A stretch of 24,000 nucleotides of DNA. Origin: Paenibacillus plantiphilus (GTDB taxonomy: Bacteria; Bacillota; Bacilli; Paenibacillales; Paenibacillaceae). The position numbers and the translations under genes are program-made. Shown one piece after another: positions 1,756-19,553 of the stretch (within the stretch, counting starts at the first letter, position 1; every line of letters starts with the position of its first letter). Under the pieces are notes generated by a model, which was not told the DNA's origin, did no database searches, and saw only the letters and a program-made list of their open reading frames with translations. The DNA lies in contig NZ_CAKMMF010000026.1 of assembly GCF_927798095.1 (NCBI RefSeq), positions 63,097 through 87,096 on the forward strand, written 5' to 3'.

Positions 1756-4188
1756 TTACCAAATGCTGCCCAGCTTCCATGCCTGCAGCTTCGTCACCCT
1801 TATCTCGCCCTGCTCGCTGAACAGCTGCACGCCATTGCTTTGAGCATGGGGATACACCCGGCTGGACAAAGCAACTTCACCGTCATTCGCGAACACTTCG
1901 ATCGAGCTCTTATCGATGAAAATATGCAGCTTCAGCGTTCCTCCTGCTGCAAGCGGCAAAGGCGCTTTGCTGATGATCTTGTCGCCCTTGCCAGCCTTCT
2001 CCAAATCCGCAATGAGCATCTGTTCCGTGAAGCTGTAATAAATGCTGGAATATTCGGAGCCATTGGCGGATTTTCTCAAGTAGAAGCCAAAGCTGCCTCC
2101 GTTCATCGCCTTTGTGTCAAACTCGCAGATGATTTCAAGCGCATCTCCGTTTAGATCGGGAAGATCCATCACACTATTCCCTGATACCGTCAGATCGCTA
2201 TACATGGACTGCTCTCCGCGCAGAAGCTCCAGTTCCTGAACCGGATTGACAAGCACATTGCCCGAAGCAGATAGTGTCAGCTCCCTTGGGATCGTCATCG
2301 CTCCTGCCCAGCCGTCCTTCTGCGTCGGCATTTCCGCTCCCCACATATCCATCCAGCCGACCACAATTCGGCGTCCCTCTTTATCGAGGAAGGTTTGCCC
2401 GGCATAGAAATCCCGTCCGTAATCGGCCTCTGCATAGTGATCCATTGTGAAGCGGCCTGTCCCGTAATCGAAATCACCGACCATAAATATATTTTTGCCA
2501 TTCTTCATATTCATCGGCGAGATCATAAGGACATATTTGTCGCCTAATGGGAAAAGGTCCGGGCACTCCCACATATCGCCCATTCCGTTCGCGCTTTCCG
2601 CCGCAACGCTGAAGAACTCCCAATCCTCTCCATCATGCGATTTGTACAGCACAACTCTTCCCGCATTATTCTTGGAAGTGCCGATCGCCATATAGAACAG
2701 GCCCTCATGCTTCCATACCTTCGGATCTCGGAAATCCTCGGAGGATTGCTTTCTATCATTCTTGACGACAGGGTTGCTCTTCGGCTTGACGAAATGAATG
2801 CCGTCCTCGCTGACTGCCATGCTTTGAACTTCCTTCGGGTTCCTTCCATGATCATGAGAGGTATAATACAGCAGCAGCTTGCCGTCATGCTCGACAGCAC
2901 TGCCTGAGAAGCATCCCTTCTCATAGCTCTGATCCGGACTTAGCGCGACGGGCATATGCTCCCAATTCACCAGGTTGCTGCTCTTCGCATGACCCCAGTG
3001 CATCGGCCCCCATTCTGCGCCATACGGGTAGTATTGATAGAAGACATGATAGTCGTCCTTATAATGAATAAGACCGTTGGGATCATTAATCCAGCCCACG
3101 GGAGCCATGATATGATAATTGAGCCTCCATCTGATATCGGGATCAATCGGATGGCCGCTTATATAGGCATTCGCCTTTTCAAGCGTGTACTGATTGCTTA
3201 TTTTCTCATTCTGTTCGATTTCCACTTGCAGAATCTCTTCCACCTGAGCGAGCGTCGGCAGCGCATTGATCGCACCTTTGCGGGATACGGCAACGGAGCC
3301 GCAGGCATTGGCCAGACTGATCATATGCAGCAGCTTGACCTGATCGACAAGCACCTGCGGGAATGCTTTCACACCTGTCTTCCAGAGCTGGTAGAGCACG
3401 CCCGCGAAGAAGGCATCGCCAGCTCCCGTCGTATCCACAACCAGCGAAACATAGCCGGGATGATTCACCTGATGGCGATGGGTATAGGCGGTGCAGCCCT
3501 TGTCGCCCTTGGTCACCAGAACAAGCTGTACATTGCCCTGCATCAGCTTCCTCACTGCCTCAGCTTCATCCGTCAGTCCAGTTAGAAACACAACCTCTTC
3601 CTCACTGATCTTCACTACATCGGCAAAAGGCAGAAACTCCAGCACCCGCTCTCTGGCAAGCTGCTCCTGCGGCCACAGGCTGAGACGGATGTTGGGATCA
3701 AAGCAGCACAGCCCCTCCTTCTTCCGTACGAGCTCAATGGTCTTTTTCGTTGCCGCTCTGGCGGAGTCGCTAATGAGAGAGATCGAGCCATAGCTCATAA
3801 GATCGCCTTCATGGAACCAATTCTCCTGTATGTCCTCCGCTGACAGCAGCTGATCCGCAGACGGATTGCCGTAGAACTCAAAGTCGCGATCCCCGTCCGC
3901 CGTTAAGGAAACAAAGGCCAGCGCAGTCTTCGCCTCACTCGTCGTCCCTATATATTCCGTATGAACGCCAACATCCCGAAGCGTCTTCAGCAAGTACTCG
4001 CCAAAGGAATCCTCCCCCAGCTTGCTGATCATATAGGCTTGCCCGCCTAGCTTAGCAATACCGCAAGCTACATTCGCCGGGGCGCCGCCGGCAGCCCGCT
4101 TGAATTCCCCAACCTCCGACAATGCCTTGCCCGCCTCTACAGCGACAAAATCAATTAAAACTTCCCCAATGCTAACAACTTTAGTCAT
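1756..4188 (-). CDS. Bifunctional fusion: N-terminal PfkB-family fructokinase plus C-terminal GH32 beta-fructofuranosidase (sucrose-6-phosphate hydrolase/invertase-like)
   Basis: It is a single uninterrupted ORF. The N-terminal part (~nt 3192-4188) carries PfkB motifs: GGAPANVA and DTTGAGDAF near the end of the kinase domain. The C-terminal part (~nt 1756-3191) carries GH32 motifs: WINDPNG (nucleophile), FRDPKV (RDP) and WECPD (EC). The ATG at 4188 (MTKVVSIGEV) is preceded by AAGGTGAAG. The ORF-track start at 4209 has no SD. There is no signal peptide, so the protein is cytoplasmic. Confidence 0.9.
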   Translation of the reverse strand: MTKVVSIGEVLIDFVAVEAGKALSEVGEFKRAAGGAPANVACGIAKLGGQAYMISKLGEDSFGEYLLKTLRDVGVHTEYIGTTSEAKTALAFVSLTADGDRDFEFYGNPSADQLLSAEDIQENWFHEGDLMSYGSISLISDSARAATKKTIELVRKKEGLCCFDPNIRLSLWPQEQLARERVLEFLPFADVVKISEEEVVFLTGLTDEAEAVRKLMQGNVQLVLVTKGDKGCTAYTHRHQVNHPGYVSLVVDTTGAGDAFFAGVLYQLWKTGVKAFPQVLVDQVKLLHMISLANACGSVAVSRKGAINALPTLAQVEEILQVEIEQNEKISNQYTLEKANAYISGHPIDPDIRWRLNYHIMAPVGWINDPNGLIHYKDDYHVFYQYYPYGAEWGPMHWGHAKSSNLVNWEHMPVALSPDQSYEKGCFSGSAVEHDGKLLLYYTSHDHGRNPKEVQSMAVSEDGIHFVKPKSNPVVKNDRKQSSEDFRDPKVWKHEGLFYMAIGTSKNNAGRVVLYKSHDGEDWEFFSVAAESANGMGDMWECPDLFPLGDKYVLMISPMNMKNGKNIFMVGDFDYGTGRFTMDHYAEADYGRDFYAGQTFLDKEGRRIVVGWMDMWGAEMPTQKDGWAGAMTIPRELTLSASGNVLVNPVQELELLRGEQSMYSDLTVSGNSVMDLPDLNGDALEIICEFDTKAMNGGSFGFYLRKSANGSEYSSIYYSFTEQMLIADLEKAGKGDKIISKAPLPLAAGGTLKLHIFIDKSSIEVFANDGEVALSSRVYPHAQSNGVQLFSEQGEIRVTKLQAWKLGSIW

Positions 4189-4240
4189 CGTTTCTTCACC
4201 TTTATCCATCCGAATTGTATTGATTATCCTTGCACAAAAT

Positions 4241-5239
4241 CTATGGTGTCAGTTCGGTTCTAAACGGATAGAGCCGGTCCTTCTTCTCTGGATCGGCCAT
4301 CAATTCAAGCATGATCTCGGCCGCTCTCCTGCCCAGCTCGTCATCAGAAACCTTGATGCTCCGAATCGGCTTCAACGCCTCATCCCAGCCGCTTTGGTTA
4401 TAAATGATGCATGGAATATCAGGCTTCTTCTCGATGAAGTATCGGGCAACTCCAATGCTCAGCGTCTCATCGGTGCAAACAACGGCGTCCGCATGGCACT
4501 GCTCGATCAGGCGCTCTGCCATCGCGTATCCATTGCCGACTGCTGCGGCCGCAGCAGCAACAAGCGAATCATCCAGCCCCCTGCTGCTGTCTCTAATGGC
4601 TTTCTTATAGGCTTGATTGCATTCGATGTTCTTGACACAAGGTTCATCATTCTCAAGGAAGGCGATCGCCTGGCGTCCGCCCTTCACCAGCAAATCAGAA
4701 ACGGCCTCGTACAGCATCGAGAAATGATTGATGTAGATAAAGCAGCCCTGCTCATCCTCCATCGGTCTATAGTCGAGAAACAGAACCGGATAGGCCGGAT
4801 CGCTATTAGCAATGAATCGGCATAGCCGAGTGGTAGGCGAGACAATAATAAGGCCATCTACTGCATGCGTCAGCATGCTCCCTATTTGATCCCCATCTTC
4901 ATAGTCCAAGCTGGAGAACAAAATGCCGTAGCCCTTCTCACCCATTGCATGAGAAATCGCGTTAATCATTCCCATGTGCAAGCGCTTGGACGTACCTTCC
5001 CCTATCACAGGCGTAATAATACGGATCATTCTGGACTTCTTGTTCCTCAGATTCTGTGCTGCAGAATTGGGGACATAGTTAAGGCCCTCAATCGTCTTCA
5101 GCACCTTCTCTTTCGTCTCCGGGCTGACATACCGTGTACCGTTAATGACATGCGATACCGTCGCTATAGAGACGCCCGCTCTCCTAGCCACTTCTTTCAT
5201 ACTTCTATCCATCGGTCTTCTATCCATCGGCGTCACCAT
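4241..5239 (-). CDS. LacI/GalR-family transcriptional repressor
   Basis: N-terminal HTH MKEVARRAGVSIATVSHVINGTRYVSPETKEKVLKTIEGLNYVPNSAAQNLR is followed by a periplasmic-binding-protein-like sugar-binding core. The start is ambiguous between 5239, 5227 and 5200; the HTH begins at the ATG at 5200. Only ~30 nt separate it from the downstream kinase-GH32 gene, so the two are probably one operon. Confidence 0.9.
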   Translation of the reverse strand: MVTPMDRRPMDRSMKEVARRAGVSIATVSHVINGTRYVSPETKEKVLKTIEGLNYVPNSAAQNLRNKKSRMIRIITPVIGEGTSKRLHMGMINAISHAMGEKGYGILFSSLDYEDGDQIGSMLTHAVDGLIIVSPTTRLCRFIANSDPAYPVLFLDYRPMEDEQGCFIYINHFSMLYEAVSDLLVKGGRQAIAFLENDEPCVKNIECNQAYKKAIRDSSRGLDDSLVAAAAAAVGNGYAMAERLIEQCHADAVVCTDETLSIGVARYFIEKKPDIPCIIYNQSGWDEALKPIRSIKVSDDELGRRAAEIMLELMADPEKKDRLYPFRTELTP

Positions 5240-8519: not shown

Positions 8520-10025
8520 TTAATCCGCCGTATCCAGCTTAATCGTCTCAATATGCCGGTGCATCGCGCCATACCCGTTCGCCGTCTGTGCGATATAGTT
8601 AAGAACGGTGTCGCTCCAGCCATAGATATAGAAGGTATTCTGATCCTGCTGCGGCGTCATTGCATGCCGATAAGGCGCAATGTCGATAATAAATGCCTTT
8701 ACGTCCCGATTGACGGACGCTCTATATTGCTGCAAGGCGACATAGAACGGGCTGCCGCTGTTCTGCTGCTCGTCTGTAATAATGATGATCTGATCGACCT
8801 TGCGGCGCTCGTGGAGCAGCTTGCGAATCGGAGCGCCTGTATCTGTTCCTCCGCGTGCCCGAATACGCTCGGCCTGCGTTAGAATGCTGTCGCGCCGCGA
8901 TGGTCTGGCATCCTCCACCTCGGTATTGAACAGCCAGAACAGGGAGCTACCATTCGTCTTCTTGTACAGAGCCAGCGCAAATACAGAGCCAATCTGCAAA
9001 TAATCACCGCTCATGGAGCCGGAAATATCGAGGAAAATCGCTGTCCTGTCCGCCAAGTCCGGCAGATTCACGAACGTCAATTCCACTGCATCCCGAAGCG
9101 CGTCCCGCAGCACCGGGTGATCCACCTGCCCGAACGCTTTCGCGAATCGGAACGGGAGAATCTTCGCCTTCTCCAATGCCCGCTGATCGGTCAAGCGGCG
9201 AACCGCTGCCGCCACATTAGCCGGGTCATCCATCACGCCTTCACGCTGCAGCGTGTTCAAATGACGCAGCAGCGCGAAGGTCGGCATCTGATGAAACAGC
9301 GCTTCCCATACTGCCCGGGAAGGCTTGATGGCGCCGGTGACGATCTCGTAGGGCAGCCTGCCCTTATTGATCCAATGCAGCTGCTCCGCTTCCGTCGCCG
9401 CCTGCTTCAACCGCTCGAACGCCTCCACTTGCGGAACAAGGAGCAGGTTCGCTTCCTTGCCGCGCAAATAGCGGTACAATGCCTGCTGCTTCAAGTCAGC
9501 CGGCTTCGGGTGCGCGGTCGCAATTGCGTCGCCCAAGCTGTAGCCGCGTCCCCGTCCATTGTACTTCAGCGCCCAATATTCCGAGATGCCGGATAGAAAA
9601 CGGTTCACCTGTCTTTTGACCGCGCGGCCACCCTCTCCACGCCCCAATCCACGCATAATCATTAGAAAATCGGACAAGTCCGAAGGGATTCGAATCACTT
9701 GCAGGAATATAGGCGCGAACAGGTCCGGGCGATAGAGGGATAGAATGGCCAGCCCGAATATCGGCTGCAGCCGCATATAGCCTTCATTGCGCGCAAAGAC
9801 GACAGCCTGTGCCATGAACTGCGGATTGCTTCTCGCCATCTCATGGTGCAGCTCAACGGATTCTGATAGAAGCTCCTGCCCGTCCGCATAGAACGTATTG
9901 CCCAATGTATTGGTCATCAGCGTCTGCACATACTGCTCTTCGGCAGAACGGATGTAGGCGGGATAACCGTCTTTATTCCTAGCAGTCGGTCTGATCACCG
10001 AGAATAATTTTTTTGCAAAGCTCAT
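8520..10025 (-). CDS. rsr: Ro60-related protein Rsr (TROVE domain plus vWA domain)
   Basis: 501 aa counted from the ATG at 10025 (MSFAKKLF), which is preceded by AAGGAGG at 8 nt. The ORF-track start at 10073 has no SD. The N-terminal two-thirds look like a helical TROVE region (GYPAYIRSAEEQYVQTLMTNTLGNTFYADG..., AVVFARNEGYMRLQP). The C-terminus is a vWA fold with MIDAS motif FLDISGSMSG ... GGTDTG ... IIIITDEQ. A Y-RNA-like gene directly upstream supports the call. Confidence 0.85.
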   Translation of the reverse strand: MSFAKKLFSVIRPTARNKDGYPAYIRSAEEQYVQTLMTNTLGNTFYADGQELLSESVELHHEMARSNPQFMAQAVVFARNEGYMRLQPIFGLAILSLYRPDLFAPIFLQVIRIPSDLSDFLMIMRGLGRGEGGRAVKRQVNRFLSGISEYWALKYNGRGRGYSLGDAIATAHPKPADLKQQALYRYLRGKEANLLLVPQVEAFERLKQAATEAEQLHWINKGRLPYEIVTGAIKPSRAVWEALFHQMPTFALLRHLNTLQREGVMDDPANVAAAVRRLTDQRALEKAKILPFRFAKAFGQVDHPVLRDALRDAVELTFVNLPDLADRTAIFLDISGSMSGDYLQIGSVFALALYKKTNGSSLFWLFNTEVEDARPSRRDSILTQAERIRARGGTDTGAPIRKLLHERRKVDQIIIITDEQQNSGSPFYVALQQYRASVNRDVKAFIIDIAPYRHAMTPQQDQNTFYIYGWSDTVLNYIAQTANGYGAMHRHIETIKLDTAD

Positions 10026-10104
10026 GAAGAGCGCCTCCTTGATAGATCGGCGGGAAGAGGAGCAATACCCCATACATAAGCCGATTAGTGATGATTATTA
10101 ATTT

Positions 10105-10208
10105 GGAGCGAGGAAGGTCGTTAAGAAGGCATGCGGCATACCGGCCGAACAGCCGATGACTACCGCTCTTATACTTGGACGAAGTAGCCCTCTTTGGCGC
10201 CTCGCTCC
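10105..10208 (-). ncRNA. Second structured RNA module, homologous to the YrlA-like RNA but without a tRNA-like domain (candidate second Y RNA or structured rsr leader)
   Basis: On the minus strand, outer stem GGAGCGAGG (10208-10200) pairs perfectly with CCTCGCTCC (10113-10105). Inner stem AAGAGGGC (10194-10187) pairs with GCCTTCTT (10130-10123), with one G-U. An apical hairpin is CATCGGC-tgttcg-GCCG(gt)ATG. Its 5' strand GAGGcgccaAAGAGGGCtacttcg parallels GAGGcgcatGGAAGGGTtacttcg in the upstream module. Confidence 0.45.
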
Positions 10209-10209
10209 T

Positions 10210-10371
10210 GATGAAGCGATTGCAGATCGATTGAGGAAAAGGACGGAAAGGTGCCGCTCTACCATCTGAGCTATCCCGCCTTGCGGCGGGAGTTGGACTC
10301 GAACCAACGACATGCCGATTGGAAGTCGAAGTAACCCTTCCATGCGCCTCAATGATCTTCGCGAAGCATCC
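10210..10371 (-). ncRNA. yrlA: YrlA-class bacterial Y RNA candidate with circularly permuted tRNA-like domain
   Basis: The minus strand reads GATCATTGAGG-cgcat-GGAAGGGT-(25 nt)-GTTGG ttcgagt CCAAC-TCCCGCC-gcaa-GGCGGGA-ta-GCTC agatggta GAGC-ggc-ACCTTTCC-gtcctttt-CCTCAAT(C)GATC. That gives a canonical T arm (10308-10292). A 7-bp acceptor stem is capped by a 4-nt loop (10291-10274), with the 3' strand before the 5' strand. A canonical D arm with GG follows. No anticodon arm is present. In its place are an 8-bp helix and an 11-bp helix with one bulged C (10357-10347 / 10236-10225). The core spans 10225-10357; the outer limits are uncertain. It lies immediately upstream of rsr on the same strand. 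Confidence 0.7.
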
Positions 10372-10483
10372 AGCTTGCTAGACTTGCTAAACTCTCCAGC
10401 TTGCAATGTCGGCTTCACTCCCCTATCATCACTTATTTCAAGCTGGACGAACATGGCGAAAGTATGGCGACCCTGCAATTCCA

Positions 10484-10492
10484 TGTTATAAT
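10484..10492 (+). promoter_or_regulatory. Extended -10 promoter element (TGtTATAAT) for the GNAT-ABC-GNAT operon
   Basis: TG-n-TATAAT lies at 10484-10492, about 30 nt upstream of the ATG at 10523. The -35 region is poor (atggcg), which is tolerated at extended -10 promoters. Confidence 0.5.
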
Positions 10493-10522
10493 GGGCCCAA
10501 CAGCAAAGGGGAGATTTCTAGC

Positions 10523-11074
10523 ATGAGCTATTACTTTCAAATCTGCGCAACCGAGCGCTATCAAGAAAAGTACATCAGCTTCTTACTTGAGCATTATTCA
10601 GCACTCAACCTGCCCTATTCATTCCCAGTGGCGCTGAGCTATATTGCTAGTCCCGTTCTTATGACTGAAGAAGCTATTCTATACTTTGACCATAATGATG
10701 AAATAGCAGGCGCACTCGGATACATATACGGAACTGGCGAGCAGCACTATCAGGATACGGGCATCGTTCAGCTCCAAACTATATTTCTATTGGATAAGTA
10801 CCGCGGAACCCGTCTTTTCCTGGAAGGCCTGCAATACCTCACACAATATTTGGCGCAGCTCGACAGGGGGATCACAGAGCTTCGATTCTGGGTCCCAGCA
10901 AATAATCCGCAGCTTCGCCGATTGTGCGGCAAGCTGGCTCAGCGAACCGTCTCCGGCGAGACCGCCTTCGGAATGATAGACGAATACAGGTTGCCACTGC
11001 CACAGCTGCAGCAATATGTCGCCCGCTTCCGTCATGAATCCTACTTTGAAACCTATCGAGGGCATACAGTATGA
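10523..11074 (+). CDS. GNAT-like (acyl-CoA N-acyltransferase fold) protein, paralog 1
   Basis: 183 aa from the ATG at 10523, preceded by AAGGGGAG. The ORF-track start at 10406 would overlap the Y-RNA region and has no SD. It has a GNAT-like beta4-alpha3 segment IVQLQTIFLLDKYRGTRLFLEGLQYLTQYLAQ followed by ELRFWVPANNPQLRRLCGKLA. Its TGA stop overlaps the ATG of the ABC gene (ATGA at 11071-11074). It is a clear paralog of the 13242..13766 product. Confidence 0.7.
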   Translation: MSYYFQICATERYQEKYISFLLEHYSALNLPYSFPVALSYIASPVLMTEEAILYFDHNDEIAGALGYIYGTGEQHYQDTGIVQLQTIFLLDKYRGTRLFLEGLQYLTQYLAQLDRGITELRFWVPANNPQLRRLCGKLAQRTVSGETAFGMIDEYRLPLPQLQQYVARFRHESYFETYRGHTV

Positions 11075-13227
11075 TCATGGTCCTTCGAAATCTGGCAAGC
11101 TATCTTCGCCCGTACAAGCTGCTGTCCTTCCTCTTTTTTGCCGGACTGTTCCTGGATCTCGCTTTCGTTTCTCTTGCTCCCTTGAGCTTCAAGTTCATGG
11201 TGGACAACGCGATCATCCCCCATGATTTCGGACAATTCTACCTGATCCTCTCCATCCTTGGAATCGCAGGCTTAATTGGCTTCAGCTCAGGCATTATAAG
11301 CGACTACATATTATCCAAATTGAGCGCCCGCGTACAAAGAGACCTGCGCAGCGGCTTATTCGCTCACCTTCAACATGTGAATATCGCCTTCTTCCAGCGC
11401 ACTCGCGCCAGCGACCTGCTCTCCTATCTCTCTGGCGACTTATCCGCAATCGACCGGGCAATGACGGTCATTCTGACGACAGGCATTCAATCTGTGTCCG
11501 TTGTAATCATTAGCGCGGGCGTGCTCTTCACATTAGAATGGAGCATGGCCGTACTCGTACTGATCGGCGCCGTTCTTATATTCACCGGACCTTACCTGCT
11601 CGGCGGACGTGCTCAAGCCATCAATGCCCAGTACAAGGATCAGATGTCGCTTATGACTGGCGATGTCCAAGAGAACATTAAAGCACAGCGGGTCATTAAA
11701 GGCTTCCATCTGCAGCAGCTCATGATCGACAAGTTCCATACAAGACTGCAATCCTTATTCGTCATCGATTATAAGAAGAATGTGATCAACTCCAGTCTGG
11801 AGCGCATCCCGATGATTAGTCTGCTGCTGATCAACTTCACCATTATCGGGTTCGGCTCCTACCTTGCGCTGCAAGGCCAAATTACGGTAGGCGCGCTTGT
11901 CGCGTTCTTCACGATGTATACCTCGATGGGCAACTCGGTATTCAACCTGACCTTCGCTATTCCGGCTTTCACAGATGCGAAGGTGAGCATGGATCGCATT
12001 CAACAGCTTCTTGTAGAGCTGCCCGAAGCCAATGGGACAGTGCAGCTCCAGCCGCTGCCGAATCAACAGCTTGACATTGAAGCCCGCGAGCTGACTTTCC
12101 GATATGCGGAAAAGCAGGATGTATTGAAGGACATTAACCTGCATATCCCGCCAGGAACGACGGCAGCATTCGTAGGCTCCAGCGGCTCCGGGAAAAGCAC
12201 GATGGTGCAGCTTATTCTCGGCTTCTACGCCCCCAACGAGGGGCATATTCGAATAAACGGCATCAGCCTGCAGGAAATGGACAAGGGCTCCTTGCGTGAG
12301 CAGATCGGCATTGTGTTTCAGGATAACTTCCTTTTTCGGGGCACGATTATGGACAATTTACGTTTGAGCAAGCCCCATGCCACCAGGGAAGAAGTGATTC
12401 AAGCGGCTGCAAAAGCCGAGATTGACGGCTTCATTCAAAGCCTGCCGGATGGTTATGAGACCGAGGTACTGGATGAGGGAGGCAATTTCTCCGGCGGTCA
12501 GCGCCAGCGAATAGCTATCGCCCGCGCTATCCTTAGAGATCCGCAGATTCTGCTGCTCGACGAGGCAACCTCCGCTCTGGACCCGATCTCGGAAGCCTCC
12601 ATTAACGAAACGTTCCGCCGCTTAGCGCATAATCGCACGGTGGTCACCGTCACTCATCGGCTGTCTGCAATAACGGATGCGGACCAAATTTTTGTATTTG
12701 ATCAAGGAAAGCTGATCGAAAGCGGCACTCATAGAGAGATGCTCGCTGCAGAAGGGTACTATAAAGAGCTGTGGGATAAGCAGAACGGACTGTCTGTATC
12801 GCCAAGCGGCGAAGAGGCGGAGATTGATGAGAACCGGCTTGCGAGACTGCCTTTTTTCCGAGATATGAACATTGACGTGCTTCGCGAAATCAAAGATTTA
12901 TTCAACACAGAAACATTCAGCGCCGGACAAGCGGTCATTCATGAGGGGGAAGCAGGCAACAAGTTCTATATCATCGCCCGCGGCAAAGTAGAAATTTCAA
13001 AACGTCCCGTTGGAGATGCAGAGCGCATCCGGTTAGCCATACTCGCGGACGGGGATCACTTCGGGGAAATTGCGCTGCTGGAAAATGTCCCGCGAACTGC
13101 GGATGTATCGGCATTGACGGAATGCACCTTTCTTACCCTGCAGCGCAAAGTGCTTCATTATGTCCTGTCTCAATATCCCGAGCTTGATGCCCGCGTCCGA
13201 GAGAAGTTAAAGGAACGCTACAACTAG
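11071..13227 (+). CDS. ABC exporter half-transporter (6-TM type I exporter TMD plus NBD) fused to a C-terminal cyclic-nucleotide-binding (CAP_ED) domain
   Basis: The N-terminal ~300 aa are hydrophobic helices. The NBD has Walker A GSSGSGKST, signature FSGGQRQR, Walker B ILLLDEATSALD and H-loop VTHR. The last ~132 aa (nt ~12829-13224) form a cNMP-binding domain: LPFFRDMNIDVLREI..., GEAGNKFYIIARGKVEI, and phosphate-binding cassette FGEIALLENVPRTADV with the conserved Arg. Confidence 0.9.
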   Translation: MIMVLRNLASYLRPYKLLSFLFFAGLFLDLAFVSLAPLSFKFMVDNAIIPHDFGQFYLILSILGIAGLIGFSSGIISDYILSKLSARVQRDLRSGLFAHLQHVNIAFFQRTRASDLLSYLSGDLSAIDRAMTVILTTGIQSVSVVIISAGVLFTLEWSMAVLVLIGAVLIFTGPYLLGGRAQAINAQYKDQMSLMTGDVQENIKAQRVIKGFHLQQLMIDKFHTRLQSLFVIDYKKNVINSSLERIPMISLLLINFTIIGFGSYLALQGQITVGALVAFFTMYTSMGNSVFNLTFAIPAFTDAKVSMDRIQQLLVELPEANGTVQLQPLPNQQLDIEARELTFRYAEKQDVLKDINLHIPPGTTAAFVGSSGSGKSTMVQLILGFYAPNEGHIRINGISLQEMDKGSLREQIGIVFQDNFLFRGTIMDNLRLSKPHATREEVIQAAAKAEIDGFIQSLPDGYETEVLDEGGNFSGGQRQRIAIARAILRDPQILLLDEATSALDPISEASINETFRRLAHNRTVVTVTHRLSAITDADQIFVFDQGKLIESGTHREMLAAEGYYKELWDKQNGLSVSPSGEEAEIDENRLARLPFFRDMNIDVLREIKDLFNTETFSAGQAVIHEGEAGNKFYIIARGKVEISKRPVGDAERIRLAILADGDHFGEIALLENVPRTADVSALTECTFLTLQRKVLHYVLSQYPELDARVREKLKERYN

Positions 13228-14048: not shown

Positions 14049-14726
14049 ATGCATAAAAAGAAGCATACAGCTTCAGAGAAATTAGCAATCATTCAGGAAA
14101 TTGAGAGTGGTCGTATTGGCGTTAAAGCTGCTGTTAAAACATTTGCTGTTTCCAAAACATCCTTAGCGAAATGGCGACGAACGTATCGGCTGTTTGGCTA
14201 TGAAGGACTAGAGGCTCAAACCCATAACCGAAGCTATTCCACCGAGCTTAAGATTCAAGCTGTAAAAGACCATCTTGAAGGGGGCTTGTCTCAATACCAA
14301 GTTATCGACAAGTACAGGATTGCAAGCAGAACACAACTCGCGAACTGGATTAAGAAGTATAATGGTCATATCAGCCTTCGAGCTTATACAGGGGGAATAA
14401 CAGCTATGACCAAAGGACGCACAACAACATGGCAGGAGAGGATCGACATTGTCCTTTATTGCCTGGCAAATGGACAAGACTACAGGAAGACAGCGGACCA
14501 ATTCCAAGTCTCCTACCAGCAAGTGTACGGATGGGTAAGGAAACATAAAGCAGGCGGCCAAGAGGCTCTGCGAGACGGAAGAGGACGCACAAAAGCGCCA
14601 GAGGAGCTGACGGAGTCGGATCAGCATAAACTTGCCCTGAAGAAGATGGAGTACGAGAACGAACGGCTCCGGGCGGAGAATGCATTCTTAAAAAAGTTGC
14701 AGGAATTAGAAAGGAGGCGACTCTAA
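14049..14726 (+). CDS. IS3-family transposase OrfA (HTH domains plus leucine-zipper-like C-terminus)
   Basis: HTH segments occur repeatedly (SEKLAIIQEIESGRIGVKAAVKTFAVSKTSLAKWRR; LSQYQVIDKYRIASRTQLANWIKKY; DYRKTADQFQVSYQQVYGWVRKH). The coiled-coil tail is LALKKMEYENERLRAENAFLKKLQELE. Confidence 0.9.
   Translation: MHKKKHTASEKLAIIQEIESGRIGVKAAVKTFAVSKTSLAKWRRTYRLFGYEGLEAQTHNRSYSTELKIQAVKDHLEGGLSQYQVIDKYRIASRTQLANWIKKYNGHISLRAYTGGITAMTKGRTTTWQERIDIVLYCLANGQDYRKTADQFQVSYQQVYGWVRKHKAGGQEALRDGRGRTKAPEELTESDQHKLALKKMEYENERLRAENAFLKKLQELERRRL
14690..14696 (+). promoter_or_regulatory. Programmed -1 ribosomal frameshift heptamer A_AAA_AAG
   Basis: In the orfA frame the codons are tta-AAA-AAG (14688-14696). 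The -1 frame is open from here to 15604 (KKVAGIRKEATLSEQRQENVYLAIQ...). This is the classic IS3/IS150 slippery motif. Confidence 0.8.
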
Positions 14727-15604
14727 GCGAGCAACGACAAGAGAACGTCTACCTTGCTATCCAAGCCGTACAGCAAGCGGAGTCGCTTAGCATACAGGTT
14801 CTGTGTGAGGTTGCGGAGATCCCACGATCGAGCTATTACAAGTGGCTGAATCGTATTCCCAGCACTAGAGAAACGGAGAACAAAGCGCTAACGGAGGTCA
14901 TGATGGCCTTGTACGAGAAAGTCGAAGGCATATTCGGCTATCGCCAATTACCACTCCATATGCGACGCCAAACCCAGAAATCAATGAACCACAAACGCGT
15001 GCAACGCTTGATGAAGATAAAGGGAATCCAGTCGGTGATCCGCAGAAAGAAAAAGAAGTATGAGCGTTCTACGCCGCAGCAGGTGGCCGAGAATGTATTG
15101 AACCGCGAGTTTCAAGCGGAGGCACCGAACGAGAAGTGGCTAACGGACGTAACGGAATTCAAGTACGGCAATAGTCAGAAAGCGTATTTAAGCGCGATAC
15201 TCGATCTTCATGATAAATCGATCGTCTCTTATGTATTCGGACATTCCAATAATAATCCGCTTGTATTTGAGACGTTAAAATTGGCCTTAATATCCGTATC
15301 CGAGAGCAAGCCATTGCTTCATAGCGACCGTGGCTTTCAGTATACTTCTTTACGGTTTAAGGAAATGCTCGATAAGGCTGAGCTCAAGCAGAGCATGTCT
15401 CGCGTTGGCTGTTGCATTGATAACGGTCCCATGGAATCCTTCTGGGGAACTTTGAAATGCGAGAAATATTATTTGCATACCTACCAGACCTTTGAACAAC
15501 TGAAAAGTGACATTGATGACTACATTCACTTTTACAATTACGAACGATTGCAGGCAAAATTAAACGGCCTCAGTCCTATGGAATTCAGGACAAAGGCCGC
15601 CTAA
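14696..15604 (+). CDS. IS3-family transposase OrfB portion (DDE/rve integrase core), expressed as an OrfAB fusion by -1 frameshifting
   Basis: The -1 frame relative to orfA is continuous from the slippery site onward. The catalytic region has WLTDVTEF (D), LHSDRGFQYTS (D) and NGPMESFWGTLKCE (E). The ORF track only reports the segment from the internal ATG at 14900. Confidence 0.85.
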   Translation, partial: VAGIRKEATLSEQRQENVYLAIQAVQQAESLSIQVLCEVAEIPRSSYYKWLNRIPSTRETENKALTEVMMALYEKVEGIFGYRQLPLHMRRQTQKSMNHKRVQRLMKIKGIQSVIRRKKKKYERSTPQQVAENVLNREFQAEAPNEKWLTDVTEFKYGNSQKAYLSAILDLHDKSIVSYVFGHSNNNPLVFETLKLALISVSESKPLLHSDRGFQYTSLRFKEMLDKAELKQSMSRVGCCIDNGPMESFWGTLKCEKYYLHTYQTFEQLKSDIDDYIHFYNYERLQAKLNGLSPMEFRTKAA

Positions 15605-15842: not shown

Positions 15843-18800
15843 TTATGCCACGCCCTTAAGCCGATCGGCGAGAACACGCATCATGCTTCTTAGGACCTCA
15901 ATATTTTGGAAGCAGAATGTCAATACCTGCTCTTTGTGCAGCCTCAGCAGCACAGCTGCGCTTACCACGGTACAATCCGCTGAACGCGGGCCGCTGTCAA
16001 TGATGGACATTTCCCCGAAAAAGTCGCCTTCCCCAAGCACTGCCAGTTCATCGCTTCCACGATGCACACGAACGACTCCTTCAATAATCCCGTACATCGT
16101 ATCTCCGAATTCGCCTGTCCTGCATATAACCTCGCCCTGCTCGTAGCTGACCTCCTCCACATGCTGGGCCAGCCATATGAAGTCCGCTGGCGCTAAATGA
16201 GCGAACAGATCCATCTTTTGCAGGACCAATACTCGCCGGAGAATAGCGGCATCCGTCAATTGCCTCACCGTATCATCCAGCTCTAAGGAAGGAGCGGCCT
16301 CCGAATGGGCGGCACTGGGTTGAACTTCAACCGCCTTCCCGTTTCGACCGTCTGCGAGCTCTAGTACAGCTCTGAGCCTGCGAGATAACAGCTTCATCAT
16401 CTCCAGCACGATGCTCGACTGATCGAACATCATATCATAGAAGTCGGAAGCATGAAGCTTCCATATTCCAATACTCTCTTCCGCGCGGATCGTAGCCGTT
16501 CGGGGCCCCTGAGTCAGAACAGCCAGCTCACCGAAGCAATCGCCCCTGCTCAGCTCGCTGATCGGTTCGCCATTCCGATAGACGCCTGCTCGCCCTTTAT
16601 CCACAATCATAAGCGAGTCGCCTGGCTCCCCTTCATGAATAATGATGCTGCCCTTATCCATGCTGACCTTCTGCAATCGCTGTGCAATGACAAATAGATG
16701 TCTACTCGTCAAGCCTTGAAACAACGATACCTTTCGCAATAGCCGCACGCGTTCCAGCCGATCAGACAGCCGGTTGAATAGTTCCGCTGTATCCTGTTCC
16801 TCTGACTGTCCAGCCGTTTCCTGTCCCTTCTCCTGGAGCATAAAGAAGGTAACCGTCTCACGAAACCACTCGTCTCCCTGAGAAGCGAGCCAGCTCAGTT
16901 TCTCTTCTCTCTGGACTTCGCTATGAGGAGCTGGCGCAATGGCTCTTGGAGCGGACATTAATTTCGCCATCTGGAGCCGAAGCTTCCCGCGCAGCGTTTG
17001 GTCGATCACTTCTTCAGCGTTAGCCTGCCGCCTCGCATCCCCTTCCGACCAGTTTATATATACGGCCTGTATCGTAGGCGCATCATAAAGCAAGGACAGC
17101 AGCTGGAAGATACGGCGGGAGATTCCACTTCGAATTTCACCAATCATGCCTTCTAGTTCGGCATAGCGCGCATCTCCGCTGACGGCCGTTCCATGCTCGC
17201 CATACTGCCAGTACAATTGCAGCTCTTGCGAAATAAGGCGTTCCAGCTCCTGGCTGTCACCTTGCAGCAATCCTGTATCCATCCGAAGCAAGGATTGCAG
17301 GATGCGGTCCCGCAGCTCCTGATTAGCAGCCTCGTAACATGCAAACAGACTCTCGAATGCCCTCTGCGTGCCCATTCGTTCAAAGATAGCCGGCAAATGC
17401 AAGCTAACCTCTTCATTGTCCATATAGGGCTGCAGCTGCGAGAGCATCTCCTGCTCATCATAGCCAGCCAGCGCATCAATTGCATATCGTCTCGTCCGGC
17501 TGTTCTTCAGGCTTCCTATTATTGACGGAATCAAAGCAGGAACGCGCAGCATAGCCGCCGATTCCAACGCTCGTTTCTTCACCTTCGTGCTGCGATCATC
17601 CAGCAATGGGAGAAGCGGCTTATAGAAGCTTGCAACACCAATCTGTCCGAACAGCGCTGCCATAGCAGTTCGTTCTTCCTCTCGGCCGCTCTCAATCAGA
17701 AGCTTAAGCTGGCCAACCGCTCTGAACATGCCCTCAATGCCATAATATTTGATCAAACCAGCGATAGCAGCCGCTTGGATCTGTATGGATTCCGCCTCCA
17801 GACAGCTTGCAATCTCATCCAAATACGCTTCTTCCGCATAAGCAGCGAGCGCAAGAATGGCCCCGGCCTTAACTTCGACGACCGCCGCCGAGCTTGCATA
17901 GGATTGCAGGAGGGGCTCGAAGCCTGCTGGCAGCGTTTCTTCCACAACCTGCAACGCCTCGATGCGAACCTCAGACGCAGGATGTTGAAGCAGCGCCCTT
18001 ATATGAGGGGTCAAATCAAACGTCTCCAGCCCACGCAATATACGAATAGCATACAAGGTTTGCTGCTTGTCAGGACTGGATAATGCAGCAAGCAATAGCT
18101 GCATGCTGGAGGGGTCCACGAAATCGAGCTCCATCCGTTGAAGCTCGCCCTTCCCCGTTTGCAGGCTGGTCATAAGCGCATGCAAATACGCTTTCTTCAC
18201 CTTGACGCCGTAAACAATTCCCACAACAAGCAGGACAATTACGATATAGCTCAGCTGTTGCGGTGCAACCAGCTGTGTAACAACGAGCAAGCAGATGGCC
18301 GCAAGTCCTTTTGCCCCATTCCGCACGATGCCGTCCAGGAAGCTCTTGGCCTTTCCGCGCCATTCCGGGGGAATTGGGAACATCACGAGCTGATTCACGG
18401 AAGAATAAATCGTATCCCCGACAGCCTTGTCACTGCCCTTAACGATAACTGCCATGACCAGAATAGGCAGAAGCATGATTCCGAAGCTGCCTGCTGCCAG
18501 CACGACCGGGAAGATGAGCAGCGAAGTCATAACACCGAACCGCGTTAACACGCGGCCGGCAATAAACAGCTGTACGAATAGAGCAATAAGTCCCGAGTAG
18601 CCGTAGAAGCTGCCCATGAATCCCGCCAACTCATCATTTTGCAAGGAAGTCCTTAATATGACTTTGAACTGGTAATCTATCAAGGTTAGCGACATTACAA
18701 TTGCGACAGATAGAATAGCGATATATTTCAAATAGGGAACATTGGCAAAAAGCCCTGAATTGGATTGCGCTGCCCTCTTGGAGGAATTCGACCTGCGCTG

Positions 18801-19445: not shown

Positions 19446-19553
19446 GCAGCAGTTCCCCCAATTCGCTGTCTGTGTCCATTTACTGAAATAACATAACAAT
19501 GTTTTCATAGATAAGCAATATTGAGACAGCGGTCACCACAACCTATACTGCTA

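What the first reader, a model, noticed from the sequence alone, without database searches (positions are those of the whole stretch)
8520..10371. Rsr (Ro60 ortholog) locus with an unannotated YrlA-type Y RNA carrying a circularly permuted tRNA mimic
The 501-aa ORF has the TROVE plus vWA/MIDAS (DISGSM) architecture of Ro60/Rsr. Directly upstream on the same strand is a textbook T arm (GTTGG-TTCGAGT-CCAAC). The 3' acceptor strand TCCCGCC follows, then a GCAA loop, then the 5' acceptor strand GGCGGGA, then a canonical D arm (GCTC-AGATGGTA-GAGC). This is a tRNA whose acceptor stem is capped and whose anticodon arm is replaced by a long helix with a single bulged C (GATCATTGAGG / CCTCAAT-C-GATC). 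That is the architecture described for the YrlA class of bacterial Y RNAs, which tether Rsr to exoribonucleases. Gene finders would miss it or call the spurious 128-aa ORF at 10098..10484. Unlike the Salmonella arrangement, no rtcR/rtcBA RNA-repair genes are adjacent here.
Basis: partly seen in the sequence, partly recalled or inferred. Interest (0 to 1): 0.8.

Follow-up and report, generated by a model that had tools for sequence, protein, structure and literature searches.

The report
Two Y RNAs beside a Ro60 gene
Just upstream of a bacterial Ro60 (Rsr) gene lie two unannotated small-RNA genes, one a capped, circularly permuted tRNA look-alike of the known YrlA type. This is a correct call, but it is an ordinary new member of a family described in 2014.

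Summary
The ORF at 8520-10025(-) is a Ro60/Rsr ortholog (Pfam TROVE and vWA_Ro60; D. radiodurans Rsr structure 2NVO, E 4e-26).

Upstream on the same strand, 10224-10360(-) is a YrlA-type Y RNA. Its parts are a basal stem, an asymmetric internal loop, a 7-bp anticodon-stem-like helix, a variable arm, a T arm, a capped 7-bp acceptor hairpin and a D arm. Rfam's YrlA model matches only the tRNA-like core (38.6 bits, gathering score 69, E 6e-7). Homologous elements sit upstream of rsr in 38 of 44 related Bacillota genomes. There, 95.7% of pair cells are paired, 24 of 38 pairs show compensatory changes, and the tRNA Levitt pair covaries. A model built without the window finds exactly two hits in the 24 kb.

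It shares the stem and loop module but has no tRNA-like domain.

Corrections: the bulged C is peculiar to this strain. The published GNCGAAN0-1G motif is replaced by an invariant GAGGCG. No RNA-repair genes are adjacent here, but 29 of 44 relatives have rlaP, rtcB or hen1-pnkp directly after rsr.

Verdict: a new member of a known kind.

The parts
8520..10025 (-). rsr: Ro60/Rsr ortholog, 501 aa, TROVE ring plus vWA domain with the MIDAS-type motif DISGSM
   Evidence: Pfam TROVE E 4.2e-12 and vWA_Ro60 E 2.6e-9. PDB 2NVO (D. radiodurans Rsr) E 4.4e-26 over residues 15-481, with DISGSM aligned to DVSGSM. 934 homologs, the best 120 being 63-98% identical and named TROVE or 60 kDa SS-A/Ro in Cohnella, Paenibacillus and Brevibacillus. 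Start at 10025 fits the 497-501 aa length of relatives.
10034..10040 (-). Ribosome-binding site AAGGAGG of rsr
   Evidence: Read from the sequence. It lies 8 nt upstream of the ATG at 10025.
10224..10360 (-). Y RNA 'A' (YrlA type), about 137 nt, with a full tRNA-like effector domain
   Evidence: Rfam YrlA local hit 10253-10315, 38.6 bits, E 5.8e-7. Clade model R1 136.2 bits. Leave-out model R2 134.4 bits, E 7e-35. MFE -57.6 kcal/mol, z -4.05.
10347..10357 (-). A: 5' strand of basal stem P1 (GATCATTGAGG). Its 3' end and the following CGC form the invariant GAGGCGC motif, the candidate Rsr-binding strand
   Evidence: P1 has 11 pairs, 8 with compensatory changes. GAGGCG is at the same position in 32 of 33 relatives.
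10335..10341 (-). A: 5' strand of P2 (GGAAGGG), the equivalent of the anticodon stem
   Evidence: 7 pairs, 98.7% paired. The fourth pair (alignment columns 23:123) occurs as A-U 18, C-G 7, U-A 6, G-C 1.
10315..10329 (-). A: variable arm (TCGA-CTTCCAA-TCGG), preceded by TTAC (YUAY)
   Evidence: 4-bp helix, 93.4% paired. Its inner pair occurs as C-G 16, A-U 11. YUAY at the start of the V region is a YrlA feature (PMC4201824).
10292..10308 (-). A: T arm GTTGG-TTCGAGT-CCAAC
   Evidence: 5 pairs, 100% paired, two of them alternating U-A/C-G across relatives. Matches the Rfam YrlA and tRNA T arm.
10274..10291 (-). A: capped acceptor-like hairpin TCCCGCC-GCAA-GGCGGGA (7 bp)
   Evidence: All 7 pairs show compensatory changes, 99.1% paired. 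The stem is 7 bp in all 33 aligned sequences.
10256..10271 (-). A: D arm GCTC-AGATGGTA-GAGC, preceded by the TA that corresponds to tRNA positions 8-9
   Evidence: 4 pairs, 99.2% paired. G15 covaries with the last V-region base (C48) as C-G 30, U-A 3, with no unpaired cell.
10245..10251 (-). A: 3' strand of P2 (CCTTTCC)
   Evidence: helix 2.
10225..10236 (-). A: 3' strand of P1 (CCTCAAT-C-GATC). The extra C is specific to this strain and its sister contig
   Evidence: Relatives read CCTCAATGATC or similar, without the C. L045 is identical to the window here.
10102..10213 (-). Y RNA 'B' (YrlB-like; type B1 in relatives), about 105-112 nt. It has the same P1, internal loop and P2 module (GGAGCGAGG-CGCCA-AAGAGGG ... 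CCTTCTT ... CCTCGCTCC), and two hairpins in place of the tRNA-like domain
   Evidence: R1 31.5 bits, E 2e-5. Leave-out R2 30.8 bits, E 8e-7, over the full model length. MFE -47.8 kcal/mol, z -4.19. In 24 homologous elements P1 is 96.8% and P2 98.8% paired, with compensatory changes.
10422..10471 (-). Conserved upstream block GTCGCCATACTTTCGCCATGTTCG-N9-AAATAAGTGATGATAGG, a candidate promoter or operator of the Y RNA-rsr unit
   Evidence: A relaxed pattern finds 42 copies in the window and 45 loci, all on the Y RNA strand and upstream of the Y RNA elements, none on the other strand. The strict 43-nt pattern with fixed 17-nt spacing occurs once each in 20 loci. It is unique in the window. In L002, L003 and L044 the first Y RNA stem starts 6-12 nt after it.

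Best explanation
**What it is.** The 497-bp intergenic region upstream of rsr encodes two Y RNAs that are the RNA partners of the Rsr (Ro60) ring protein.

**Shared docking module.** Both RNAs have the same arrangement. The 5' and 3' ends pair into a basal stem that ends in GAGG:CCUC. An asymmetric internal loop follows (5' CGCNN, 3' pyrimidine-rich). Then comes a 7-bp helix that contains an invariant G-U pair. By analogy with Xenopus, Deinococcus and Salmonella Y RNAs, the conserved 5' strand (GAGGCGC) is where Rsr binds (inferred).

**RNA A (10224-10360).** It carries a complete tRNA look-alike: variable arm, T arm, 7-bp acceptor stem closed by a GCAA loop, and D arm. This is a circularly permuted tRNA with no free CCA end, as in YrlA.

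**RNA B (10102-10213).** It carries two plain hairpins instead.

**Expression (inferred).** The most likely route is co-transcription with rsr from a conserved upstream promoter-like block. Processing into stable RNAs that Rsr protects would follow, as shown for M. smegmatis and D. radiodurans.

**Function (inferred from the family).** The RNAs gate the Rsr cavity. Through their distal modules they recruit partner proteins, such as PNPase or a tRNA-elbow-binding factor, for degradation or repair of damaged structured RNA. In most relatives the same cassette heads an RNA-repair operon. In this genome it stands alone.
For: **Shown here**
- Rsr identity.
- Rfam YrlA hit on the T/acceptor/D core, E 5.8e-7.
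- Reciprocal detection of Salmonella YrlA and a mycobacteriophage Bxz1 element by the clade model, with Rfam confirming the Salmonella YrlB and YrlA as positive controls.
- Homologous elements on the rsr strand, upstream of rsr, in 38 of 44 related genomes.
- Covariation: 38 pairs, 95.7% of cells paired against 38-54% when the partner is slid by 1-3 columns; 24 pairs with compensatory changes; 0 of 500 shuffles reach any measure.
- The tRNA Levitt pair 15:48 covaries (C-G 30, U-A 3).
- Every tRNA-invariant base of the D and T loops is present.
- The leave-out model finds exactly these two elements in 24 kb.
- In the 98%-identical sister contig the two RNAs differ at only 3 positions, all in loops. 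The 76-nt spacer before the rsr start carries more than 10 changes, most in its last 30 nt. This indicates purifying selection on the RNAs.
- ARAGORN finds no tRNA, and the overlapping 128-aa ORF matches no Pfam family.
- No terminator-like site lies between the RNAs and rsr.

**From the literature**
- YrlA features, the YrlA plus YrlB pair upstream of rsr processed from one precursor in M. smegmatis, and RNase P cleavage of a YrlA with a 7-bp acceptor stem (PMC4201824).
Against: - There is no expression, end-mapping or Rsr-binding evidence. Everything about stability, processing and partners is inferred.
- The Rfam match is below the gathering score and covers only model positions 24-84 of 114.
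- The published candidate Rsr-binding motif GNCGAAN0-1G is not present at the conserved position. It matches literally in only 2 of 33 sequences, and there in flanks.
- No promoter of a recognised type was found on this strand. The conserved block has no assigned sigma factor.
- The locus lacks the third Y RNA and the repair genes found in most relatives, so it could be a partly decayed version, although rsr is intact.
Confidence: 0.85

Rival explanations
1. The elements are not independent small RNAs. They are a structured cis-acting leader of the rsr mRNA, for example an autoregulatory decoy where Rsr binds its own 5' UTR to control translation or stability.
For: No terminator-like site lies between the elements and the rsr RBS. 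In relatives the last element ends only 10-25 nt before the RBS. The whole cassette sits between one conserved promoter-like block and rsr.
Against: In M. smegmatis and D. radiodurans the same layout yields stable processed Y RNAs from a polycistronic precursor (PMC4201824). In L001 and L043 a Y-like element with its own copy of the upstream block lies about 2 kb from rsr, separated from it by a tRNA array, so it cannot be a leader. In Salmonella the homologous RNAs lie downstream of rsr. A full tRNA-like fold with a covarying Levitt pair is not needed for a simple decoy. The two roles are also not mutually exclusive.
Confidence: 0.1
2. Element A is a remnant of two adjacent tRNA genes (the T arm of one and the D arm of the next), or a tRNA pseudogene, with no function of its own. 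Chen et al. flagged this kind of false positive.
For: The Rfam tRNA model gives a weak overlapping hit (18.9 bits, E 0.34). Real tRNA arrays lie upstream of rsr in three relatives (L001, L032, L043). Tandem tRNAs give partial matches to the clade model (model positions 32-106).
Against: The acceptor strands are joined by a 4-8 nt loop and form one closed hairpin in all 33 sequences. No anticodon arm exists and ARAGORN calls nothing. The flanking P1 and P2 helices, which have no counterpart in tandem tRNAs, covary strongly. The element is conserved next to rsr across families of Bacillota. It is nearly invariant between the window and its sister contig while the spacer has diverged.
Confidence: 0.02
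3. The RNAs are genuine Rsr partners, but their main job is in RNA repair rather than exonuclease tethering. They would present Rsr-bound damaged RNA to repair enzymes, or act as tRNA-shaped sensors or substrates. In that case the stand-alone cassette in this genome would work with repair enzymes encoded elsewhere, or would be a functionally reduced relic.
For: In 29 of 44 relatives rsr is followed on the same strand by rlaP (26 loci), rtcB (19 loci; downstream of rsr on the same strand in 18) or hen1-pnkp (8). RlaP adds nucleotides to damaged RNA 3' ends and helps restore repaired tRNA (PMC12776372). Rsr, YrlB and YrlA have been proposed to act in repair because of linkage to RtcB (bioRxiv 10.1101/312249). 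The window lacks the third Y RNA of its relatives and all repair genes.
Against: Linkage is not mechanism. The only demonstrated Y RNA mechanism in bacteria is the Rsr-Yrn1-PNPase machine. The window's own 24 kb holds no repair gene, yet rsr and both RNAs are intact and conserved.
Confidence: 0.3

Closest known systems
Salmonella Typhimurium YrlA (Rfam RF02553; tRNA-like domain crystal structure 6CU1 as cited in bioRxiv 10.1101/312249)
   Same: Encoded next to rsr on the same strand. It has a basal stem formed by the two ends, an anticodon-stem-like helix, YUAY at the start of the variable region, a T arm, a closed acceptor-like hairpin, the UA linker and a D arm, with the tRNA tertiary-interaction bases present. 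The two are mutually detectable by covariance models.
   Different: Here the RNA lies upstream, not downstream, of rsr. The acceptor hairpin is 7 bp rather than 6 and the variable arm is a longer 4-bp hairpin. The 5'-strand motif is GAGGCGC instead of GNCGAAN0-1G. T-stem sequences differ (GUUGG against GCAGG/GCGGG). There is no sigma-54/RtcR/rtcBA context. The Rfam score is 38.6 against 70.9 bits for Salmonella.
Mycobacterium smegmatis YrlA and YrlB (Chen et al. 2014, PMC4201824)
   Same: Two Y RNAs in tandem upstream of rsr on the same strand. YrlA has a 7-bp acceptor stem like a real tRNA. A second RNA shares the Rsr-binding stem but lacks the full tRNA-like domain. In relatives of the window a further RNA (type B2) carries only a T arm, as reported for M. 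smegmatis YrlB.
   Different: RNase P cleavage and CCA addition are shown there and only inferred as possible here. The window's second RNA has no T arm.
Deinococcus radiodurans Yrn1/Yrn2 with Rsr and PNPase (RYPER)
   Same: Y RNAs lie upstream of rsr on the same strand, are co-transcribed (there with a tRNA) and are modular, with an Rsr-binding stem and an effector module. Three relatives of the window also have tRNA genes in the same unit. This is the only bacterial case with a demonstrated mechanism.
   Different: Yrn1 has a T-arm-like element but no full D arm (PMC4201824). The window's RNA A is a complete tRNA mimic. PNPase tethering is untested here.
Metazoan Y RNAs (Ro60 partners)
   Same: About 100-nt RNAs with a long terminal stem that binds Ro60 mainly through its 5' strand, and a distal module that binds other proteins.
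   Different: Metazoan Y RNAs have no tRNA-like domain. Their conserved bulged helix (GGUCCGA with a bulged C) has no conserved counterpart here, because the window's bulged C is strain-specific.

Membership tests
YrlA (tRNA-like bacterial Y RNA; Chen et al. 2014; Rfam RF02553) | Encoded within 4 kb of a Ro60/Rsr ortholog, on the same strand | tested here: met
   The element ends 199 nt upstream of the rsr start codon, on the same strand. The same holds in 38 of 44 relatives.
YrlA (tRNA-like bacterial Y RNA; Chen et al. 2014; Rfam RF02553) | Near-invariant T and D stem-loops separated by an acceptor-like stem-loop | tested here: met
   Rfam YrlA local alignment over model positions 24-84, E 5.8e-7. 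T, acceptor and D helices are 99-100% paired with compensatory changes.
YrlA (tRNA-like bacterial Y RNA; Chen et al. 2014; Rfam RF02553) | Variable-arm region upstream of the T arm that begins with YUAY | tested here: met
   UUAC at 10330-10333 is followed by a 4-bp hairpin. GGGUUACUUCG is nearly invariant in relatives.
YrlA (tRNA-like bacterial Y RNA; Chen et al. 2014; Rfam RF02553) | tRNA tertiary-interaction bases, including a covarying Levitt pair 15:48 | tested here: met
   U8/A9, A14, G15, G18, G19, A21, U54, U55, C56 and A58 equivalents are all present. The Levitt pair occurs as C-G in 30 and U-A in 3 sequences, with none unpaired.
YrlA (tRNA-like bacterial Y RNA; Chen et al. 2014; Rfam RF02553) | [quoted passage not shown] | tested here: met
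   P1 has 11 bp, 8 with compensatory changes. P2 has 7 bp, 3 with compensatory changes.
YrlA (tRNA-like bacterial Y RNA; Chen et al. 2014; Rfam RF02553) | GNCGAAN0-1G motif near the 5' end (proposed Rsr contact) | tested here: not met
   It matches literally in 2 of 33 sequences, and only in non-homologous flanks. The window has CGCGAAG just 5' of P1, but this is not conserved. The positional equivalent, as aligned to Salmonella by the clade model, is an invariant (Y)GAGGCGC. The motif is a proposed contact, not a proven requirement.
YrlA (tRNA-like bacterial Y RNA; Chen et al. 2014; Rfam RF02553) | Reaches Rfam's gathering score (69 bits) | tested here: not met
   38.6 bits. No relative reaches it either. 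The control is informative: Salmonella YrlA itself scores 70.9, and the mycobacteriophage Bxz1 element is missed at gathering. The threshold therefore excludes accepted members.
YrlA (tRNA-like bacterial Y RNA; Chen et al. 2014; Rfam RF02553) | Stable RNA bound by Rsr, with tRNA-type modifications (pseudouridine 55, dihydrouridine) | not testable with these tools
   This needs a northern blot or RNA-seq, Rsr immunoprecipitation and modification mapping.
YrlB-type second Y RNA | A second RNA at the rsr locus that shares the Rsr-binding stem or motif but lacks the full tRNA-like domain | tested here: met
   10102-10213(-) has the same GAGGCGC, P1/P2 module and GGGCUACUUCG. R2 gives 30.8 bits, E 8e-7. 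24 homologs show 97-99% pairing in P1 and P2.
YrlB-type second Y RNA | Sequence membership in Rfam YrlB (RF02565) | tested here: not met
   There is no hit even at E up to 10. Chen et al. found Salmonella YrlB orthologs only in other Salmonella serovars (PMC4201824), so this is a functional analogy, not family membership.
Ro60/Rsr protein | TROVE (HEAT-repeat ring) domain followed by a vWA domain with a MIDAS-type motif | tested here: met
   Pfam TROVE 46.4 bits (cut-off 23) and vWA_Ro60 37.7 bits (cut-off 27.7). End-to-end alignment to 2NVO, 9L5Y, 9NEN and 1YVP; DISGSM aligns with DVSGSM.

The most novel reading that the evidence does not exclude
Bacillota rsr loci may encode a distinct Y RNA subfamily organised as an array of interchangeable adaptors. 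All members share one Rsr-docking module (a stem ending in GAGG, a CGCNN loop, and a helix with an invariant G-U pair). This differs from the published GNCGAAN0-1G motif. The members present different distal modules: a full tRNA mimic, a T arm only, or plain hairpins. There are two to five per locus. Each transcription unit is preceded by the same roughly 50-bp block with fixed internal spacing, which matches no standard sigma-70 promoter. That points to a dedicated, still unidentified regulator or sigma factor for an RNA-damage response, which in most species also drives rlaP, rtcB or hen1-pnkp. The window would then be a natural minimal version of that system, with two adaptors and no repair enzymes.
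Probability: 0.25. Interest if true: 0.55.

Novelty: new member of a known kind. Interest (0 to 1): 0.3.

Why it matters
For this genome, the result places two real non-coding RNA genes in a roughly 500-bp 'empty' intergenic region. It also explains why Rfam-based annotation misses them. The curated YrlA threshold is so tight that even the Salmonella type RNA barely passes.

For the field it adds little that is conceptually new. YrlA-type tRNA mimics next to rsr were reported in more than 250 species from at least 10 phyla.

The useful by-products are:
- a well-supported covariance model for the Bacillota branch;
- evidence that the proposed Rsr-binding motif is not universal (GAGGCGC here);
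- evidence that these loci carry two to five paralogous Y RNAs with different distal modules;
- a conserved upstream DNA block that could lead to the unknown regulator of Rsr and RNA-repair operons in Gram-positive bacteria.

Tried and rejected
- **Rfam at gathering threshold.** Run on the window and on 15 related loci, it found nothing except true tRNAs. I did not take this as evidence against, after the Salmonella and phage controls.
- **ARAGORN.** No tRNA or tmRNA in the window, so A is not a mis-annotated tRNA.
- **Sigma-70 promoter and intrinsic terminator scan of 9900-10700.** Nothing on the minus strand.
- **Assigning a sigma factor to the conserved upstream block.** By eye I compared it with SigA, SigB, SigE/F/G/K, SigH, SigW/X-type ECF, sigma-54 and the LexA box. 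None fitted convincingly and I left it unassigned. I also asked whether the block forms an RNA hairpin (TTCGC...GCGAA). The variation does not covary, so I rejected that reading.
- **Extending P1 outwards (GAUG...CAUC, GCGA...UCGC; 10209-10370).** This is possible in the window but not conserved in relatives, so I did not include it.
- **A remnant of the missing third Y RNA (B2) in the 76-nt spacer before rsr.** The best local alignments (scores 17-20) are within the range of shuffled controls (maxima 21-25). This is suggestive only.
- **MAFFT alignment of the B1 elements.** It mis-registered the 3' strand of P2 in several rows. I replaced it with anchor-based extraction.
- **Supplementary tables of Chen et al. 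2014.** They are not held, so I could not check whether Paenibacillaceae were among their 254 species. A literature search for YrlA together with Firmicutes genera returned nothing relevant.


Full report

Coordinates were computed.

- T arm GTTGG-TTCGAGT-CCAAC, 10292-10308.
- TCCCGCC-GCAA-GGCGGGA, 10274-10291.
- TA, then the D arm GCTC-AGATGGTA-GAGC, 10256-10271.
- Outer strands GATCATTGAGG (10347-10357) and CCTCAAT-C-GATC (10225-10236).
- A 501-aa ORF, 8520-10025, behind an AAGGAGG ribosome-binding site.

The ORF list gives a 517-aa version starting at 10073. Relatives are 497-501 aa and the nearest one is exactly 501 aa, so 10025 is the start.

**2. The protein**

- Pfam gives TROVE (E 4.2e-12) and vWA_Ro60 (E 2.6e-9), both above their curated cut-offs.
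- Against solved structures the best match is D. radiodurans Rsr (2NVO, E 4.4e-26, residues 15-481). Next come a TROVE-domain protein (9L5Y/9KOP), human Ro60 (9NEN) and Xenopus Ro60 (1YVP). DISGSM aligns with DVSGSM.
- The protein database holds 934 homologs. The best 120 are 63-98% identical, mostly from Cohnella, Paenibacillus, Brevibacillus and Gorillibacterium, and are named TROVE or '60 kDa SS-A/Ro'.

The window therefore comes from a Cohnella-like member of the Paenibacillaceae.

**3. The RNA against public models**

- No Rfam family reaches its gathering score anywhere in the window.
- With E-value reporting on 10000-10600, the best hit is YrlA (RF02553) at 10253-10315(-). It scores 38.6 bits against a gathering score of 69, with E 5.8e-7. 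It covers model positions 24-84 of 114, which is the T arm, acceptor hairpin and D arm.
- ARAGORN finds no tRNA.
- The 128-aa ORF over the region matches nothing in Pfam.
- The 143-nt stretch folds to -57.6 kcal/mol (z -4.05), with the arms as described.

**4. Is failing the gathering score meaningful? Controls**

A Salmonella fragment (L047) carrying the end of rsr gave Rfam YrlB at 105.5 bits (gathering 97). It gave YrlA at only 70.9 bits (gathering 69). The region around the Ro gene of mycobacteriophage Bxz1 (L046) gave no hit at gathering, although mycobacteriophage YrlAs are part of the original description (PMC4201824). The threshold therefore excludes accepted members, and a significant sub-threshold local hit is what one expects for a distant branch.

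**5. Comparative evidence for element A**

A scan of one genome per species recovered 44 loci encoding relatives of this Rsr (58-78% identity).

- A simple T-arm search, followed by alignment, showed the same composite element upstream of rsr on the same strand in 38 of them.
- On the 33-sequence alignment A2 the consensus fold has six helices: P1, P2, V, T, acceptor-like and D.
- Counting pairs on that structure gives 38 pairs with 95.7% of cells paired. When the 3' partner is slid by 1-3 columns the figure falls to 38-54%.
- 24 pairs carry compensatory changes, and 0 of 500 shuffles reach any of the five measures.
- All seven acceptor-hairpin pairs covary.
- The fourth pair of P2 (alignment columns 23:123) occurs as A-U, C-G, U-A and G-C.
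- The T stem alternates between GUUGG, GCCGG and GCUGG, each with a matching 3' strand.
- The tertiary Levitt pair (last variable-region base with D-loop position 15) is C-G in 30 sequences and U-A in 3, and is never unpaired. Chen et al. used this same covariation as evidence for a tRNA-like fold (PMC4201824).

The D and T loops carry the tRNA-invariant bases. The acceptor-like stem is 7 bp in all 33 sequences.

**6. An unbiased test on the window**

A covariance model built without the window and without its closest Cohnella relative (R2) was run over all 24 kb on both strands. It returned exactly two hits:

- 10224-10360(-), 134.4 bits, E 7e-35.
- 10102-10213(-), 30.8 bits, E 8e-7.

The sister model R1 also detects the genuine Salmonella YrlA end to end (47.4 bits, E 7e-11). 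It detects an element about 150 nt upstream of the Bxz1 Ro gene as well (45.1 bits). Together, this makes detection reciprocal.

**7. The second RNA**

- This element has the same GAGGCGC, the same P2 (AAGAGGG with CCTTCTT) and the same GGGCUACUUCG as element A.
- Two hairpins replace the T, acceptor and D arms. It folds to -47.8 kcal/mol, z -4.19.
- Relatives carry homologous 'B1' elements between A and rsr. In 24 of them P1 is 96.8% and P2 98.8% paired, with compensatory changes.
- Many relatives have a third element, 'B2', directly before the rsr ribosome-binding site. It has the shared module plus a lone T arm, GCAGG-TTCGAGT-CCTGC. This recalls the report that M. smegmatis YrlB has a possible T arm (PMC4201824).
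- The window has no B2. A weak resemblance of its spacer to the 3' end of B2 is not significant.

**8. Selection**

A contig from a public sequencing run (L045) encodes a 98%-identical Rsr in the same gene neighbourhood.

- Across the intergenic region the two RNAs differ at only three positions, all in loops.
- The 76-nt spacer between B and the rsr start has more than ten changes, most in its last 30 nt. The region upstream of A has a 9-nt indel.
- The gene caller used for that contig called nothing in the intergenic region.
- It started the divergent upstream gene at the position equivalent to window 10523 (183 aa), not at the first ATG at 10406.

**9.

- The tRNA-like core is not joined directly to 'a long helix with a single bulged C'. 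It is joined through the 7-bp P2, then an asymmetric internal loop (5' CGCAU; 3' GUCCUUUU), then the 11-bp P1.
- The bulged C is an insertion found only in the window and L045. Relatives read CCTCAATGATC or similar. It is therefore not the counterpart of the conserved bulge of metazoan Y RNAs.
- The published 5' motif GNCGAAN0-1G is absent from the conserved position. When the clade model aligns Salmonella YrlA, its CACGAAUGCUGG falls on the clade's CCGAGGCGCAUGG. GAGGCGC is therefore the positional equivalent and the best candidate for the Rsr-contacting strand. This is inference.

**10. Context**

Within the window there is no RtcB, RtcA, RtcR, RlaP, Hen1 or Pnkp. Rsr is followed by a convergent two-component sensor kinase. 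Upstream lie a divergent hypothetical gene and an ABC transporter.

The family picture is different. In 29 of 44 relatives rsr is followed on the same strand by:

- rlaP in 26 loci;
- rtcB in 19 loci (in L008 the match lies about 3.5 kb upstream of rsr rather than after it);
- hen1-pnkp in 8 loci.

This fits the known linkage of Rsr and Y RNAs with RNA repair (bioRxiv 10.1101/312249). It also fits the recent biochemistry of RlaP on damaged RNA (PMC12776372). The window is a stripped-down version: two Y RNAs and rsr only.

**11. Transcription**

No sigma-70-type promoter or terminator was found on the minus strand. A block with consensus TCG(TA/CC)ATACTTnCGCCMTGTTCG-N17-GAWGATARG lies upstream of the Y RNA elements.

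- There are 42 copies in the window and 45 loci, all in the same orientation.
- L001 and L043 each have two copies, each followed by a Y element.
- In the window the block is at 10422-10471 and is unique.
- Where element A or its leader is missing or short (L002, L003, L044), the first P1 starts 6-12 nt after the block. This is the geometry expected if GAWGAT is a -10 element.

I could not assign a sigma factor. It is a candidate promoter or operator and nothing more.

**12. How it most likely works**

*Shown here:* an intact Ro60 ortholog and two adjacent, conserved, structured RNA genes. One is a complete closed-acceptor tRNA mimic.

*Inferred from the family:*
- The unit is transcribed from the conserved block, through both RNAs and probably into rsr.
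- The RNAs are excised and stabilised by Rsr binding to the GAGGCGC strand of the terminal stem.
- They gate the Rsr cavity and use their distal modules to recruit partners, as Yrn1 recruits PNPase in Deinococcus.
- The 7-bp acceptor stem makes RNase P cleavage conceivable, as in M. smegmatis.

Which partner the tRNA-like elbow binds is unknown for the whole YrlA class.

**13. Verdict**

It is a new member of a known kind, a divergent Bacillota branch of the YrlA family that Rfam's threshold misses, plus a second Y RNA. A specialist would not be surprised. The side observations (a variant docking motif, arrays of Y RNAs with different distal modules, a conserved upstream block) are modestly interesting leads.

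Noticed in passing
It has the same terminal stem, GAGGCGC and P2 module as the YrlA-type RNA, with two hairpins instead of the tRNA-like domain. It is homologous to 'B1' elements in 24 relatives.
   Followed up: yes
window 10422-10471 (-); 42 copies across the window and L001-L045: A highly conserved block (TCG..ATACTTnCGCCMTGTTCG-N17-GAWGATARG) lies upstream of the Y RNA elements, always in the same orientation. It fits no sigma factor consensus I could recall. It is a candidate promoter or operator of the Y RNA-rsr (and repair) unit.
   Followed up: partly
L001-L044, about 3800-3990 (e.g. L010 3801-3916, L043 3854-3977); window 10026-10101: Most relatives have a third Y-like RNA ('B2') just before the rsr RBS, with the shared stem module plus a lone T arm GCAGG-TTCGAGT-CCTGC. 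The window and its sister contig lack it. The spacer's resemblance to the 3' end of B2 is not above shuffled controls.
   Followed up: partly
L001-L044 downstream of rsr (e.g. L012 5527-9490; L043 5512-7549; L010 5700-9355): In 29 of 44 relatives rsr is followed on the same strand by RNA-repair genes: rlaP (26 loci), rtcB (19) or hen1-pnkp (8). In 12 loci an uncharacterised protein of about 535 aa, with only a weak HEAT-repeat match, sits between rlaP and rtcB.
   Followed up: partly
L001 1859-2069 and 2741-3053; L043 1350-1555 and 2227-2852; L032 1464-1602 and 2522-3096: Three relatives have a tRNA gene array (3-7 tRNAs) upstream of rsr on the same strand. A further Y-like element lies upstream of each array, and in L001 and L043 it has its own copy of the conserved block. 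This recalls the Yrn2-tRNA-Yrn1 precursor of Deinococcus. The L001 and L043 elements have a T arm followed by a long hairpin and no D arm.
   Followed up: no
L038 1-550 (Desulfocucumis MAG); L039 2568-2670; L040 3834-3941 (Syntrophomonadaceae): Clostridia-class relatives carry the same GAGGCG...GGGGYUACUUC module. L038 has five tandem elements before rsr. Some have a T-arm-like hairpin with a non-canonical loop plus an acceptor-like hairpin, but no D arm.
   Followed up: no
L047 719-918; L046 1823-1975: Rfam's YrlA gathering score (69) is barely passed by Salmonella's own YrlA (70.9 bits). The model misses the element upstream of the mycobacteriophage Bxz1 Ro gene, which my clade model finds at 45 bits. 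Rfam-based annotation therefore under-calls this family.
   Followed up: yes
window 10406-11074 (+): The mechanical ORF (222 aa from the ATG at 10406) overlaps the promoter-like block and the 5' flank of the Y RNA. The sister contig's gene call and a GGGGAG ribosome-binding site put the real start at 10523 (183 aa). The protein matches no Pfam family.
   Followed up: partly
window 11071-13227 (+) and 15843-19508 (-): Two transporters carry C-terminal cyclic-nucleotide-binding domains. One is an ABC exporter-type protein (718 aa). The other is a 1221-aa protein with TLC/MFS, HEAT and two cNMP-binding domains.
   Followed up: no
window 14049-15604 (+): A probable insertion sequence: two consecutive ORFs encoding transposase helix-turn-helix domains (HTH_Tnp_1, HTH_28) and an rve-type integrase core.
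   Followed up: no
window 1756-4209 (-): An 817-aa protein fuses a PfkB-family sugar kinase to a GH32 glycoside hydrolase. It lies next to a LacI-family regulator (4241-5239).
   Followed up: no
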